Assembly: GCA_038087875.1 (NCBI GenBank)
Contig: CM075994.1
Coordinates: 9,178,001-9,242,000, forward strand
Length of the DNA: 64,000 bases
Direction: 5' to 3'
Origin: Malacoraja senta
Taxonomy: Eukaryota
In this document: in pieces, positions 11,974-63,500 of the stretch
Position numbering within the stretch: the stretch's first letter is position 1
How the letters are laid out: every line of letters begins with the position of its first letter
Position numbers and translations under genes: made by a program
The notes under the pieces: generated by a model
Databases searched by the model: none
Told to the model about the DNA's origin: nothing
What the model saw: only the letters and a program-made list of their open reading frames with translations

Positions 11974-12191
11974 TTACGACCTTGTCAAGGTCCAAAGCAA
12001 GCAGCCGAATGTCGCCACGAGGCACGCAGGAGCGGCTGGCGGGTTCAGCCGGGGGCACCCATTGCATAATGGTGTTTTACAACATATTGGATTGACGACC
12101 ACCAACAGAGATCCGTACCAATCTGAAAAAGGGTGGTCGCACATTGAAAGTTCCAAGCACCCGCGCACATAAAGATAGAGGTGACGGGAGG
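11974..12191 (-). CDS. Gene A last coding exon (LU C-terminal half plus GPI-like tail)
   Basis: ttgtcttctcag| acceptor; VRGC...C...CCKTPLCN, then a hydrophobic tail and TAA. Confidence 0.9.
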
Positions 12192-14844
12192 CTGAGAAGA
12201 CAAAAGCAACAAGAACAACTCTAATAAGACTGACTGTGCTAACGCAGGCAAATGAAAATGAGTCCATCTTAGTTTAGTTTAGTTCATTGTCACAATAGAC
12301 ATTAGACAACAGGTGCAGGAGTAGGCCATTCGGCCCTTCGAGCCAGCACCGCCAATCAATGTGATCATAGCTGATCATCCCCAATCAGTACCCCCGTTCC
12401 TGCCTTCTCCCATATCCCCTGACTCCGCTATCTTTAAGAGCCCTATCAAGCCCAATATGGTATATGGACGCACTGATCTGTTTTGTAGTCAATGCCTACT
12501 ATGTTCTGTTGTGCTGAAGCAAAGCAAGAATTTCATTGTCCTATCAGGGACACATGACAATAAACTCTCTTGACTTGAACTTGAACTTGAGCTCTCTCCT
12601 GAAAGCATCCAGAGAACCGGCCTCCACCTCCCTCTGAGGCAGAGAATTCCACAGACTCACAACTCTCTGTGAGAAAAAGTGTTTCCTCATCTCCGTTCTC
12701 AATGGCTTACCCCTTATTCTTAAACTCTGTCGCCCCTGGTTCTAGGCTCCCCCAACATCGGGAACATGTTTCCTGCCTCTAGCGTATCCAAACCCTTAAT
12801 AATCTAACATGTTTCAATCAGATTCCCTCTCATCCTTCTAAATTCCAGAGTGTACAAGCCCAGCCGCTCCATTCTCTCAGCATATGACAGTCCCGTCATC
12901 CCGGGAATTAACTTTCTAAACCTACTCGGCGGGCTGAAGGGCGTTTCCATGCTGTATCTCAAAAACTAAAGTTTTAGGCAATTGATTTTTTCCCCCTCTA
13001 CACAGCTGGATTATTTGTACTTACCGATGTAAGCAATTCCTTTGAAGCATTCGGCGTTGTGAAAACATTCTACCTTTCCCTCAGTGGGAAAGGAGGGACT
13101 TATGCTTTTGGTGTAGCAACTCAGACCATGACCTATCAGTGAAGAACACGGAAGACACACGTTTGACATATGGTAGACAAAAATGCTGGAGAAGCTCAGC
13201 ACGGAAATCGCTATCAAAACATGCGGGGGACACAATTTCTTGGCGGCCGGGCGCGCATGTGCGAGGCTTCGGCCGTGGGGCCCTTGTGGACGGTAACATC
13301 GGGAGCTGACCTGGTTGGTGACCGACTCCCAACTCCAGCAACAGCAGCTTCGTCCACCCCGGATCGTGGGGCTTGAATCGGCCCGTTTTTTAGTTTGAAG
13401 ATACAGCCGACCAGCGATCCCCGCACACTAACACCATCCTACACCCACTAGGGACATTTTTTTTCACACACATTTACCAAGCCAATTAACCGACAAACCT
13501 GTGCGTCTTTGGAGTGTGGAGGAAACCGAAGATCTCGGAGAAAACCCACGCAGGTCACGGGGAGAACGCGCAAATTCCATACAGACACACGAGGGACAAT
13601 TTCGAAGCACGGTCCCAACCCGAAACGTCACCTATCCATGTTCTCCAGAGATCCTGCCTGACCCACTGAGTTACCGCAGCATTTTGTATCATATTTCCTC
13701 TTTAGTCTTTGATTTGCAGATGACACAAAGCTGGGTGGCAGTGTGAACTATGAGGAGGATGCTATGAGGATGCAGGGTGACTTGGACAGGTTGGGTGAGT
13801 GGGCAGATGCATGGCAGATGCAGTTTAATGTGGATAAATGTGAGATTATCCACTTTGGTGGCAAAAACAGGAAGGCAGGCTATTATCTGAATGGTGTCAA
13901 GTTGGGAAAAGGGGAAGTACAACGGGATCTGGGGGTCCTTGTTCATCAGTCAATGAATGTAAGCATGCAGGTACAGGAGGCAGTGAAGAAAGCGAATGGC
14001 ATGTTGGCCTTCATAACAAGAGGAGCTGAGTACAGGAGCAAAGAGGTCCTTCCGCAGTTGTACAGGGCCCTAGTGAGACCACACCTGGAGTATCGTGTGG
14101 AGTTTTGGTCTCCAAATTTGTGGAAGGCCATTCTTGTTATTGATGGAGTGCAGCATAGGTTCACGAGGTTAATTCCCGGGATGGCGGGTCTGTCATGTGT
14201 TGATAGAATGGTGCTGCTGGGCTTGTATACTCTGGAATTTAGAAGGATGAGAGGAGATCTTATTGAAACATATAAGATAATTAAGGGTTTGGACACACTA
14301 GAAGCAGGAAACATGTTCCCGATGTTGGGGGAGTCCAGAACCAGGGGCCACAGTTTAAGAATAAGGGGTAAGCCATTTACAACGGAGATGAGGAAAAACC
14401 TTTTCATACAGAGAGTTGTGAATCTGTGGAATTCGCCTCAGAGGGCGGTGGAGGCCGGTTCTCTGGATAATTTCAAGAGAGAGCTAGATAGGGCTCTTAA
14501 AGAAAGCGGAGTCAGGGGCTATGGGGAGAAGGCAGGAACGGGGGTACTGAATTGTGGATGATCAGCCAAATGGCCCACTCCGGCACTTAAATGGCCTAGT
14601 TCTACTCCTAGAACTTGTGAACTTGTGAAGTGCGGGTGTCAGGGGTTATGGGGAGAAGGCAGGAGAATGGGGTTAGGAAGGAGAGTTGGATCAGCTATGA
14701 TTGCATGGCGGACTAGACTAGATGGGCCGAATGGCCTAATTCTGCTCCTATCACTTATGACCATTTCTAATCTTACATCAATTAGTATTTCTTACCAATC
14801 AAGAAATAAGAAGCAAAAGCTGTAGATAATAGAAGCGGCTTCAT
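11974..14844 (-). CDS. Ly6/uPAR (three-finger) family gene A, 8-Cys LU domain, predicted GPI-anchored; join(complement 14796..14844, 13025..13132, 11974..12191), 124 aa
   Basis: Spliced translation MKPLLLSTAFASYFLIGHG-LSCYTKSISPSFPTEGKVECFHNAECFKGIAYIASRHLYLYVRGCLELSMCDHPFSDWYGSLLVVVNPICCKTPLCN-GCPRLNPPAAPACLVATFGCLLWTLTRS*. Canonical GT-AG phase-1 introns; 49+108+218 nt is in frame; CCxxxxCN motif; hydrophobic N- and C-termini. Confidence 0.9.
12295..12925 (-). mobile_element. CR1 3' fragment inside the last intron of gene A
   Basis: Reverse complement of the CR1 3' end, with a small Rex-type tail inserted at about 12450-12590. Confidence 0.85.
13025..13132 (-). CDS. Gene A LU-domain first exon (108 nt)
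   Basis: tag|GT CAT GGT CTG AGT TGC TAC ... TAC ATC G|gtaagt; lies within ORF 13011..13235. Confidence 0.88.
13712..14560 (+). mobile_element. CR1 fragment (RT C-terminus) in an intron of gene A
   Basis: ORF 13743..14561, FADDTKL...RVVNLWN. Confidence 0.95.
14796..14844 (-). CDS. Gene A signal-peptide exon (coding part)
   Basis: ATG at 14844, MKPLLLSTAFASYFLI, then G|gtaag donor. Probable acceptor ttttgcag places the exon start at about 14904. Confidence 0.82.
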
Positions 14845-61434: not shown

Positions 61435-61622
61435 TTACATAAATATTGCAAACCAGACTGAGACCAGAGCAGGGAACAGCAGAAGAGATAATTTAACTTG
61501 GTCGCTTGCGTTGCAGAAGTTAGTAGAGCAACAGTTGAAAGAGACTGAGACACTTTGAATAGTATGCTGGATATTACAATCAGTAGGGGGAAAACATCCA
61601 GCGCTGTAAACCTTTATACCAG
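61435..61622 (-). CDS. Gene D last coding exon
   Basis: ctgtttttccag| acceptor; SAGC..C..CCSTNFCN plus hydrophobic tail and TAA. Not in the ORF track. Confidence 0.92.
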
Positions 61623-63500
61623 CTGGAAAAACAGAATGGACAGTTAAATAATTTCAGAGTTCATAGTTCATGTGCTATTTTCGTGTTATACAGCGTGGAA
61701 ACAGGACCTTAAGCCCAACTTGCCCACACCGGCCAATTAGTCCCAACTGCCTGCGTTTAGTCCATATCCCTCCAAACTTGTCCCATCCATGTACTTGTCT
61801 AAATGTTTCTTAAACGTTGCGATAGTCCCTGCCTCAACTACCTCCTCTGGCAGCTTGTTCCTTACACCCACCACCCTTTGTGTGAATGCCGCTGAGTTTT
61901 CACATTTCTATCAGTAAATCAGCTATTTATTCACAGAATCGCACAGTCTTAACATCTTTACGAGGATGTTGCCAGGATTAGAGGGTGTGAGCTATAGGGA
62001 GAGGTTGGGTCTCTATTCCTTGGAGCGCAGGAGGATGAGGGGTGATCCTTCAGAGGTGTATAAAATCATTAGAGGAATAGATTGGGTAGATGCACAGAGT
62101 CTCTTGCCCAGAGTAGGGGAATCGAGGACCAGAGGACACAGGTTTATGGTGAAGGGGAGAAGATTTAATAGGAATCTGAGGGGTAACCTTTTCACACAAA
62201 GGGTGGTGGGGGTATGTTTCCACGCTGTATCTCTAAACTAGAGATATTCATCTCAAATTGATTCTTACTTACCAACCTCTGCAACCCCAAGGTAGCATTG
62301 CAGCCCCCAACGGCAGTTAACAGTTTTACCCACGCATTTTTCCGTTGATGCTAAGCAGGAGAAACACCGCAAACAGTTACCTGTACATTGAGAACAAAAC
62401 AGAGGAGGTTGTGTGAGAGACACCTGCAGCTCGTTCTGCCGCTGCTCTGAAAACGAGCAACTCCTTTCAATAAACATAGAGCAGTACCAACACAAAATGC
62501 TGGAGTAACTCAGCGGGTCAGGCAGCCGCTCTGGAGAAGAGGTACAGGTGATGTTTTGGTCGAGACCCTCCCAAATGCCAACTGTTGTACTGGTTTGAAA
62601 GTCGTCTTGTTGAATCTCATTATCTGTAACTCGTTCTCACCTCGCCCACTGCTAACAATGGCCTGTTTCCTTTATCATCTTTTCCTTTTTGCATATCTTT
62701 CATTCATTTGTTCAATATCTCTCGATATCACTGCCTATCTCTCGTTTCCCTTTCCCCTGACTCTCAGTCTTGAAGAAGGGTCTCGACCTGAAACTTTTTC
62801 AGGTCGAGACCCTTATTCCTTCTCTCCAGATATGCTGCCTGTCCCGCTGAGTTACTCCAGATATTTGTGTTTATTTTTGGTGTAAACCAACATCTGCAGT
62901 TCCTTCCTACACCTCAGTGCTGTAGAGCCCTCTGATGTTTACATCATGTAAACAGGCCATTCGGCCCACCGAGTCCGCGCCGACCAGTGATCACCCTGTA
63001 CACTAACACTATCCTACACACTGACAAAGTAGTATCTAATCTTAGATACTAAGATTAGATACTTACAGTTACAGTTTTCCTTTTTGTACTATTATTGTTT
63101 GTTTCATATGTGTGTGTGTGTCTGTGAGTGTGTGTGGCAAGGAACTGCAGATGCTGGTTTACACCGAAGATAGACATAAAATGCTGGAGTAACTCAGCGG
63201 GACAGGCAGCATCTCTGGAGAGAAGGAAGAAGGGTCTCGACTTGAAACGTCACCATTCCTTCTATCTGGGACATCTAACAATAAAACACTCTTGACTTGA
63301 CAATAACTAACTCCATATTCAGTTACAAACTCTCTATGTGAATGAACACACAAGCTAAATGTTTAACCAAGAATTCCAATCCCACTTGAGAATCTAAAAT
63401 GCCTTTCCACAGTTAAACTAGAGAACAACAATAGTTATATTTCCTTACCCGGAGAGGCACTGAGAATGAGACCAGCCACCAGGACCACAAGGCAATTCAT
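61435..63500 (-). CDS. Ly6/uPAR family gene D, canonical 10-Cys LU domain, predicted GPI-anchored; join(complement 63449..63500, 62273..62380, 61435..61622), 115 aa
   Basis: MNCLVVLVAGLILSASPGNC-LRCFSCLASTEKCVGKTVNCRWGLQCYLGVAEVAGIKVYSAGCFPPTDCNIQHTIQSVSVSFNCCSTNFCN-ASDQVKLSLLLFPALVSVWFAIFM*. 52+108+188 nt; GT-AG phase-1 introns. Confidence 0.93.
62273..62380 (-). CDS. Gene D LU-domain first exon (108 nt)
   Basis: tacag|GT AAC TGT TTG CGG TGT TTC TCC TGC ... GAG GTT G|gtaagt. Confidence 0.92.
63449..63500 (-). CDS. Gene D signal-peptide exon (coding part)
   Basis: aagATG AAT TGC CTT ... TCT CCG G|gtaagg. Confidence 0.87.

What the first reader, a model, noticed from the sequence alone, without database searches (positions are those of the whole stretch)
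11974..63500. Hidden four-gene Ly6/uPAR three-finger cluster buried in TE debris
Seen in sequence: four intact genes in the order A(-) B(+) C(+) D(-). All have phase-1 GT-AG introns, a 49-52 nt signal exon, an invariant 108-nt middle exon and a CCxxxxCN-plus-hydrophobic-tail exon. Most exons are too short for the ORF track. Established knowledge: this is the exon architecture of single-LU-domain Ly6 genes (CD59, Ly6E, Lynx1, PSCA, fish Bouncer, snake three-finger toxins), which act in immunity, nAChR modulation and gamete recognition. Inference: this is a lineage-specific chondrichthyan expansion whose members I cannot map to named orthologues, so it is probably poorly annotated.
Basis: partly seen in the sequence, partly recalled or inferred. 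Interest (0 to 1): 0.85.

Follow-up and report, generated by a model that had tools for sequence, protein, structure and literature searches.

The report
Skate Ly6 cluster with unpaired cysteine
This stretch of DNA, likely from a skate, holds four intact genes for small three-finger (Ly6) proteins predicted to sit on the cell surface; the family is well known, but two of them keep one likely unpaired cysteine, also present in a catshark relative, that would let them link covalently into pairs.

Summary
A(-), B(+), C(+) and D(-) are intact three-exon genes with phase-1 GT-AG introns, 108-nt middle exons and CCxxxxCN plus hydrophobic tails. They are single-domain Ly6/uPAR genes, predicted GPI-anchored.

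They are not one recent expansion. D belongs to a skate family already annotated as CD59/PSCA-like (18 proteins, 59-77% identical). A pairs with a bamboo-shark protein and B/C with a catshark protein, so those lineages likely predate the shark-ray split.

D has 10, A has 8 (2-3 bond lost), and B and C have 9: Cys2 became Asn while Cys3 stayed in finger I. The catshark relative has the same pattern, seen in 3 of 61 scored homologues. This suggests a kept free thiol, likely for covalent pairing; that is untested.

The cluster is therefore probably the counterpart of the mammalian LY6G5/G6 locus (inferred). No RNA evidence was obtained. Verdict: new variant of a known family, moderate interest.

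The parts
14796..14844 (-). Gene A exon 1 (ATG, predicted signal peptide), 49 nt
   Evidence: GT donor, phase 1, hydrophobic core (KD8 2.0)
13025..13132 (-). Gene A exon 2, 108 nt; Cys2 and Cys3 both absent
   Evidence: tblastx to B exon 2, E 0.003
11974..12191 (-). Gene A exon 3: second half of LU domain, CCxxxxCN, 28-aa tail, stop
   Evidence: 39 bits; no Pfam hit on its own
18376..20513 (+). CpG-rich tract with CACGTG repeats followed by a (TGGAC)n satellite; duplicated upstream of C; likely 5' end or promoter of B (inferred)
29832..29880 (+). Gene B exon 1, coding part (predicted signal peptide); an acceptor-like site about 45 nt upstream suggests a non-coding first exon
34938..35045 (+). 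Gene B exon 2, 108 nt; Cys2 replaced by Asn (AAT), Cys3 kept (residue 32)
39454..39653 (+). Gene B exon 3: CCxxxxCN, 24-aa hydrophobic tail, stop
   Evidence: Pfam UPAR_LY6 E 3e-4
45648..48615 (+). Second copy of the CpG/CACGTG tract plus satellite, upstream of C; likely 5' end or promoter of C (inferred)
49545..49593 (+). Gene C exon 1, coding part (predicted signal peptide)
51880..51987 (+). Gene C exon 2, 108 nt; Cys2 replaced by Asn (AAC), Cys3 kept (residue 32)
57870..58072 (+). Gene C exon 3: CCxxxxCN, 25-aa hydrophobic tail, stop
   Evidence: Pfam UPAR_LY6 E 6e-5
63449..63500 (-). Gene D exon 1 (predicted signal peptide), 52 nt
   Evidence: near-identical N-terminus in annotated skate proteins
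62273..62380 (-). Gene D exon 2, 108 nt; canonical Cys1-Cys5
61435..61622 (-). Gene D exon 3: CCxxxxCN, 24-aa hydrophobic tail, stop
   Evidence: Pfam CD59 E 2e-4, UPAR_LY6 E 5e-3; 77% identical to P0001 over the whole protein

Best explanation
The window holds four intact three-exon Ly6/uPAR genes whose products are predicted to be secreted, GPI-anchored three-finger binding proteins, likely of a skate and likely from the Ly6 locus of the MHC class III region, and B and C keep one likely unpaired cysteine that would link them covalently to a copy of themselves, to each other or to a membrane partner. Shown: intact frames, splice sites, LU motifs, the cysteine counts (D 10, B and C 9, A 8), the same 9-cysteine pattern in a catshark relative, and dN/dS below 1 between B and C. 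Inferred: signal cleavage and GPI anchoring (about 0.9); expression (about 0.9); MHC class III position as counterpart of mammalian LY6G5/LY6G6 (about 0.6); an exposed free thiol in finger I used for an intermolecular disulfide (about 0.4). The likely mode of action is that of other GPI-anchored Ly6 proteins: non-enzymatic binding, through the finger tips and concave sheet, to receptors or ligands at the cell surface. B and C are strongly basic (+7, +8), which would favour acidic partners. D is one copy of a skate family with variable fingers on a constant signal and anchor, which suggests diversifying recognition, most likely immune or barrier-related. History (inferred): the ancestor of A and B/C lost Cys2, the A lineage then lost Cys3, and B/C kept it.
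For: Gene models and chance control; profile scores against shuffles. Pfam LU/CD59 hits on exon 3 of B, C and D. Whole-length skate relatives of D pass the Pfam cut-offs for CD59, UPAR_LY6 and Toxin_TOLIP, 3 of 3 tested. The AlphaFold model of the catshark relative P0113 has pLDDT 82, with residue 32 in the coil between the finger I strands; its best PDB match is GPIHBP1, E 4e-4. P0113 has Asn at Cys2 and keeps Cys3; only B, C and P0113 show this, 3 of 61 scored rows. B+C+P0113 have 96/87 support and 95/87 with finger I columns removed; A+P0024 have 96/91 and 95/85. B versus C: dN/dS 0.38 in the LU domain. P0113's contig is 163,470,629 bp; the last gene on catshark MHC chromosome 13 ends at 163,380,576 (PMC10751288 supplement). 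Ly6-type genes lie between csnk2b and clic1/ddah2 in sawfish, white shark and reedfish. Four unnamed catshark genes beside csnk2b run -,+,+,-, like A-D. [quoted passage not shown]
Against: No signal-peptide or GPI predictor was available; both rest on hydropathy and homology. Every single-exon Pfam hit is below the curated cut-off, and A has none. The 9-cysteine pattern rests on one full-length shark sequence (P0020 is truncated before finger I); two further searches found no more (0 of 458 and 1 of 883 candidates). In the 55-row tree the link of B/C to the catshark proteins was unresolved (65/86), and the A+B/C clade fell to 93/87 without finger I. The window has no flanking non-Ly6 gene (197 frames scanned), so MHC linkage is indirect. 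The catshark and white-shark genes with matching strands are unnamed. D-type proteins of Amblyraja lie on three different contigs. No mammalian LY6G protein was in the trees.
Confidence: 0.6

Rival explanations
1. An ordinary Ly6 cluster in which the odd cysteine of B/C is a tolerated relic (buried, capped by a small thiol, or harmless), and all four proteins work as monomers.
For: Loss of the 2-3 bond is common in LU domains, and medaka Bouncer B has an unpaired cysteine (PMC6600238, passages). One skate D-type protein, P0011, carries an 11th cysteine. Conservation is shown for only three sequences.
Against: The same cysteine is kept in both skate paralogues and a shark while finger I around it has diverged (exon 2 pieces 49-51% identical to P0113). 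The shark-ray split is dated at about 306 Ma (PMC3692497, abstract). The model places the residue in an exposed-type loop.
Confidence: 0.45
2. The cluster is not the MHC-linked LY6G locus but the counterpart of another Ly6 group (the PSCA/LY6E/LYNX1 cluster or CD59), as the automatic names suggest, acting as complement or acetylcholine-receptor regulators.
For: D relatives are named CD59-like or PSCA-like. The best sequence matches among solved structures are CD59, uPAR and PSCA. D-type genes sit on several contigs in Amblyraja.
Against: Those names are automatic and inconsistent within one clade: CD59-like, PSCA-like and mipartoxin-like. An Amia relative is named LY6G6d.
Confidence: 0.25
3. 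One or more of the genes is a gamete-recognition protein of the Bouncer/SPACA4 type.
For: The nearest shark and chimaera relatives are auto-named 'Bouncer-like' or 'SPACA4-like'. Variable fingers in the D family would fit species-specific recognition.
Against: Bouncer is single-exon and lies beside ppfia1 (10.1101/354688, passages), while these genes have three coding exons. The one row named plain Bouncer (P0039) is a long branch that changed place between trees.
Confidence: 0.12
4. The genes are recently silenced copies that still look intact.
For: About 63% of the window is repeated sequence. C has no AATAAA or ATTAAA within 1.5 kb of its stop.
Against: All 12 exons are open and all 16 splice sites canonical. 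dN/dS is 0.44 over codons 1-112 of B versus C. Relatives are annotated as coding genes in five other elasmobranch genera.
Confidence: 0.06

Closest known systems
Skate 'CD59 glycoprotein-like' / 'PSCA-like' RefSeq models (Leucoraja erinacea, Amblyraja radiata, Rhinoraja longicauda; P0001-P0018)
   Same: Gene D belongs to this clade (100/99 support); 59-77% identical; 10 cysteines in 16 of the 18; near-identical signal peptide and tail.
   Different: A, B and C are only 20-34% identical to them. The names are automatic; CD59 or PSCA orthology is not shown.
Catshark XP_038672631.1 ('cobrotoxin-b-like', P0113) and S. torazame GCB77611.1 (P0020)
   Same: Likely orthologue of B/C: 45-51% identity per exon, the same 75-residue domain, the same Cys2-to-Asn change with Cys3 kept, a similar basic tip of finger II, a GPI-type tail.
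   Different: One catshark cluster was found, against two paralogues here. It is an automatic model with no characterised function; the toxin name is by similarity only.
Bamboo shark XP_043534271.1 ('protein Bouncer-like', P0024)
   Same: Groups with A (95-98 bootstrap); 8 cysteines, 2-3 bond absent.
   Different: Only 30% identical. A has a longer tail and a cysteine two residues after the CN motif. It is not true Bouncer, which is single-exon.
Mammalian MHC class III LY6G5B/C and LY6G6C/D/E (6p21) and fish lypc
   Same: Three-exon single-LU genes in a small cluster; G6C, G6D and G6E are GPI-anchored (PMC4839075, passages). Ly6g5b adjoins Csnk2b (PMC3626593, passages). Ly6-type genes hold the same position in sharks, sawfish and reedfish (PMC10751288 supplement).
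   Different: Orthology was not tested by sequence and the position of this window is inferred. No 9-cysteine member was found described in the papers searched.
Irditoxin and 8-cysteine snake three-finger toxins
   Same: A precedent for a covalent LU dimer through an odd cysteine, and for loss of the 2-3 bond (PMC6600238, section 3.1).
   Different: Those are secreted venom proteins, and irditoxin gained an 11th cysteine. Here the proteins carry GPI-type tails and the odd cysteine is a left-over half of the 2-3 bond. Nothing points to toxin function.

Membership tests
Single-domain Ly6/uPAR (LU) genes | Three coding exons (signal; two LU exons) with phase-1 introns, the second at the tip of finger II | tested here: met
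   4 of 4 genes; definition from PMC6600238 passages
Single-domain Ly6/uPAR (LU) genes | C-terminal CCxxxxCN motif | tested here: met
   4 of 4
Single-domain Ly6/uPAR (LU) genes | Eight core cysteines (bonds 1-5, 4-6, 7-8, 9-10) | tested here: met
   present in 4 of 4; the pairing itself is inferred from CD59 (PMC4839075 passage)
Canonical 10-cysteine LU domain | N-terminal LxCxxC motif and the 2-3 disulfide | tested here: not met
   Met only by D. A lacks Cys2 and Cys3; B and C lack Cys2 only
Single-domain Ly6/uPAR (LU) genes | Pfam LU-family profile above the curated cut-off | tested here: inconclusive
   Single exons hit UPAR_LY6 or CD59 below cut-off for B, C and D and not at all for A; spliced models were not scanned against Pfam; 3 of 3 D relatives pass; own profile 62-111 bits
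Single-domain Ly6/uPAR (LU) genes | Three-finger fold | tested here: met
   Tested on the stand-in P0113: pLDDT 82, top Foldseek hit GPIHBP1; Atlas features 0.96 to a UPAR/Ly6 cluster. A exon 3 alone scored under 0.9
GPI-anchored Ly6 proteins | Cleaved signal peptide and C-terminal GPI signal | tested here: inconclusive
   Hydropathy only: N-terminal KD8 2.0-3.3; 24-28 aa tails with KD11 2.35-2.71 and no cytoplasmic part; no predictor available
MHC class III LY6G5/LY6G6 locus | Position beside CSNK2B, ABHD16A, CLIC1 and DDAH2 | tested here: inconclusive
   No flanking gene in the window; indirect support through P0113's chromosome and the strand order of unnamed genes
MHC class III LY6G5/LY6G6 locus | Phylogenetic grouping with mammalian LY6G proteins | not tested
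   No mammalian LY6G sequence was returned; the Amia LY6G6d-named row is unresolved
Bouncer | Single-exon gene | tested here: not met
   Three coding exons here versus single exon (10.1101/354688)
CD59 | Inhibition of the membrane attack complex | not testable with these tools
   Only profile similarity
Snake three-finger toxins | Secreted domain ending at the CN motif, with no anchor | tested here: not met
   All four continue into a hydrophobic tail

The most novel reading that the evidence does not exclude
B and C define an unrecognised 9-cysteine Ly6 subfamily that has held a half-lost disulfide for about 300 million years. The free thiol on finger I makes GPI-anchored covalent dimers or fastens the protein to a receptor. 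One MHC class III cluster then preserves all three steps (10, 9, 8 cysteines) of the disulfide loss that also shaped snake toxins, beside a skate-specific family with hypervariable fingers.
Probability: 0.3. Interest if true: 0.65.

Novelty: new variant of a known kind. Interest (0 to 1): 0.42.

Why it matters
Ly6 clusters are common, so four more genes alone would be routine annotation. Two points raise it. First, unpaired cysteines in LU domains usually cause misfolding (GPIHBP1 disease alleles; PMC6600238, passages), so one kept from sharks to skates points to a use, and a simple gel can test it. It also offers a natural intermediate for how the 2-3 bond is lost. Second, if this is the MHC class III Ly6 locus, it gives the cartilaginous-fish state of a cluster whose mammalian members are poorly understood; the main text of the shark MHC paper read here never mentions LY6.

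Tried and rejected
Own genome: none is held, so flanking genes could not be read.

RNA: the run search with C exon 3 gave 5 runs and no RNA holder listed; this is no evidence either way. Four runs laid on 49400-63700 were contigs dominated by repeats, with no joint at a predicted intron among the rows shown (most rows were cut). Contigs of organism B cover C exon 1, exon 2 and part of exon 3 at roughly 88-96% identity; the differences in exon 2 were not listed.

Dimer prediction: two copies of P0113 residues 19-96 gave 'no answer' (score 0.02, alignment not used); no support and no evidence against.

More B/C orthologues: 0 of 458 longer candidates; 1 of 883 candidates, the known P0020.

Other genes: Pfam on 197 frames in sequence not repeated within the window found, besides D exon 3, only ALKBH8_N and zf-RVT hits (read as retroelement remnants, from recall) and two weak chance hits.

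Positive selection between B and C: not shown. dN/dS is 0.38, and synonymous divergence in the LU exons (dS 0.78) also exceeds that of the tail (0.13) and flanks (about 15%), so gene conversion or small numbers may explain the pattern.

An intramolecular partner for Cys32: C has a cysteine at residue 19, but B and P0113 have serine there; the other cysteines lie in the predicted signal or GPI peptides.

Earlier scan notes: none.

Literature: searches listed no paper on this cluster or on a 9-cysteine elasmobranch Ly6; subscription papers are not covered. The Bouncer preprint's supplementary table of 192 sequences was not seen and may place shark members of this group.

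
Full report
OBSERVATION. A six-frame scan found four CCxxxxCN motifs followed by a hydrophobic tail and a stop. Searches for signal and middle exons and a self-BLAST gave the other exons. The models are A(-) 14844-14796 / 13132-13025 / 12191-11974, 124 aa; B(+) 29832-29880 / 34938-35045 / 39454-39653, 118 aa; C(+) 49545-49593 / 51880-51987 / 57870-58072, 119 aa; D(-) 63500-63449 / 62380-62273 / 61622-61435, 115 aa. All eight introns are GT-AG and phase 1, all middle exons are 108 nt, and no frame has an internal stop. 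The motif plus tail occurred 0 times in each of 100 Markov simulations (the motif alone averaged 0.17). B and C are 63% identical; other pairs are 24-31%.

FAMILY. Exon 3 of B, C and D hits Pfam UPAR_LY6 (E 3e-4, 6e-5, 5e-3), below the curated cut-off as expected for half a domain; A exon 3 and the four middle exons gave no hit. A profile of 66 homologues scores the spliced models at 111 (D), 98 (C), 92 (B) and 62 (A) bits against at most 13.6 in 2000 shuffles. Its exon-2 part ranks D, C and B first among 2644 peptides and misses A; no further Ly6 exon was found. The three-exon phase-1 layout is the textbook LU gene (PMC6600238, passages). Signal peptides and GPI signals are inferred from hydropathy only.

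RELATIVES. A profile of the four third exons returned 18 proteins of 49 candidates, all from three skates and named CD59-like, PSCA-like or mipartoxin-like. They are 59-77% identical to D and 20-34% to A, B and C; this is the basis for calling the window a likely skate. The unindexed search returned 95 proteins. The best match to B and C was a catshark protein (P0020, 48-49%), whose full-length cluster mate is XP_038672631.1 (P0113); the best match to A was bamboo shark XP_043534271.1 (P0024, 30%). In a 25-row tree B+C+P0113 had 96/87 support, A+P0024 96/91, the two groups together 95/95, and D sat in the skate clade at 100/99; A-D as one clade was rejected (p-AU 4.5e-30). With the finger I columns removed the values were 95/87, 95/85 and 93/87. 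A 55-row mixture-model tree kept A+P0024 (98/94) and the D clade but left the B/C-catshark link open (65/86). So at least two lineages likely predate the shark-ray split, dated at 306 Ma (PMC3692497, abstract), while the D family and the B/C duplication appear skate-specific.

CYSTEINES. D has the canonical ten. A lacks Cys2 and Cys3. B and C have Asn at Cys2 and keep Cys3 at residue 32. In CD59 numbering Cys2 pairs with Cys3 (PMC4839075, passage), so residue 32 has no partner in the domain. P0113 shows the same change. Of 89 single-domain rows, 28 were partial or not alignable and were dropped. Of the other 61, 50 have both cysteines, 5 have neither, 2 have three, 1 was misaligned, and 3 have Cys3 alone: B, C and P0113. 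The AlphaFold model of P0113 (pLDDT 82) puts residue 32 in the coil between the finger I strands, and its fold matches GPIHBP1 and other LU domains; exposure of the thiol is inferred. [quoted passage not shown] It also notes an unpaired cysteine in medaka Bouncer B, which shows tolerance is possible. I put covalent use of this thiol at about 0.4. The limit is sampling: one full-length shark sequence, and no more in two searches.

SELECTION. B versus C gives dN/dS 0.38 in the LU domain and 0.44 over codons 1-112, consistent with constraint. Exon 2 (68.5% identical) is more diverged than most flanks (about 85%) and the tail (95%), but synonymous sites share the excess, so accelerated protein evolution is not shown. 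In the D family (19 proteins, 171 pairs) mean identity is 83% in the signal, 55% in the domain and 96% in the tail. The tail figure is biased upward because the search used D's tail.

POSITION. The window holds no other recognisable gene (197 frames). P0113 lies on a contig of 163,470,629 bp. In the supplement of PMC10751288 the catshark MHC chromosome (NC_052158.1; chromosome 13 in the legend, 37 in the sheet title) has its last gene ending at 163,380,576, so P0113 is probably on it. There, four unnamed genes between gpank1 and csnk2b run -,+,+,-, as A-D do. In white shark, csnk2b is followed by three unnamed genes (+,-,+), then lypc and clic1, which would fit D, a single B/C, and A. In sawfish two 'SPACA4-like' genes lie between csnk2b and ddah2 around clic1, and in reedfish lypc and a 'SPACA4-like' gene lie between ddah2 and csnk2b. 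In mammals the LY6G5/G6 cluster is in MHC class III and Ly6g5b adjoins Csnk2b (PMC4839075 and PMC3626593, passages); that DDAH2 and CLIC1 flank the human cluster is recalled. Against: the strand-matched genes are unnamed, and D-type proteins of Amblyraja lie on three contigs. I put MHC class III identity at about 0.6.

DUPLICATION UNIT. B and C share their exon flanks and an upstream CpG-rich tract with CACGTG repeats and a five-base satellite (18.4-20.5 kb versus 45.6-48.6 kb); 24 of the window's 27 CACGTG sites fall in these two tracts. With an acceptor-like site about 45 nt before each ATG, this suggests a duplicated promoter and non-coding first exon (inferred).

MECHANISM. Shown: intact LU genes with three cysteine patterns. 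Inferred from the family: secretion, GPI anchoring and non-enzymatic binding of surface receptors or ligands through the fingers. Inferred here: B and C (net charge +7, +8) use the finger I thiol to form covalent dimers or partner adducts, and the D family diversifies its fingers for recognition, most likely immune or barrier-related. Mammalian LY6G6 proteins are listed with filopodial roles and, for LY6G6E, alpha4beta2 potentiation (PMC4839075, Table 3 passage), so receptor modulation is also plausible. A toxin role is rejected because of the anchor tails, and Bouncer identity because Bouncer is single-exon (10.1101/354688, passages).

NOVELTY. The family and its clustering are known, and D's subfamily is annotated. 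The conserved 9-cysteine form and the probable LY6G-locus identity were not found in eight literature searches, which do not cover subscription papers. Papers seen: 10.1101/354688 passages; PMC6600238 passages and the first part of section 3; PMC10707392 one passage (a UPAR/Ly6 fragment in shark skin mucus); PMC10751288 passages, supplement searches and parts 1, 6, 7, 15, 17 and 24; PMC4839075 and PMC3626593 passages; PMC3692497 abstract; all others as listings only.

Noticed in passing
window 18376-20513 and 45648-48615: Duplicated CpG-rich tracts hold 24 of the window's 27 CACGTG (E-box) sites, each followed by a 1-1.3 kb five-base satellite. The first also lies about 3.5 kb upstream of gene A on the other strand, so it could be a shared promoter.
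   Followed up: partly
window 11974-12191 (gene A exon 3): A has a cysteine two residues after the CN motif. If the GPI cleavage site lies beyond it, mature A would also carry an odd cysteine.
   Followed up: no
P0001-P0018 and gene D: The skate family has a near-constant signal peptide and tail around variable fingers (83/55/96% identity). P0015 has lost the 2-3 pair independently and P0011 has an 11th cysteine.
   Followed up: partly
window 39579-39653 versus 57995-58072: The GPI-tail coding parts of B and C are 95% identical while the adjacent LU part of the same exon is 72%; possible gene conversion.
   Followed up: partly
window 52869-54398 (-): A fragmented L1-type reverse-transcriptase remnant in intron 2 of C (frames listed; class recalled, no Pfam hit). 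Many CR1-type fragments occur across the window (class recalled).
   Followed up: no
P0096 / P0123 (stingray and devil ray): Another batoid single-LU group has 11 cysteines in the span scored; unrelated to A-D in the trees.
   Followed up: no
PMC10751288 supplement, sawfish NC_067438.1:4833507-4915880: An 82-kb 'SPACA4-like' model next to csnk2b is far longer than a Ly6 gene and may be several genes fused by annotation.
   Followed up: no
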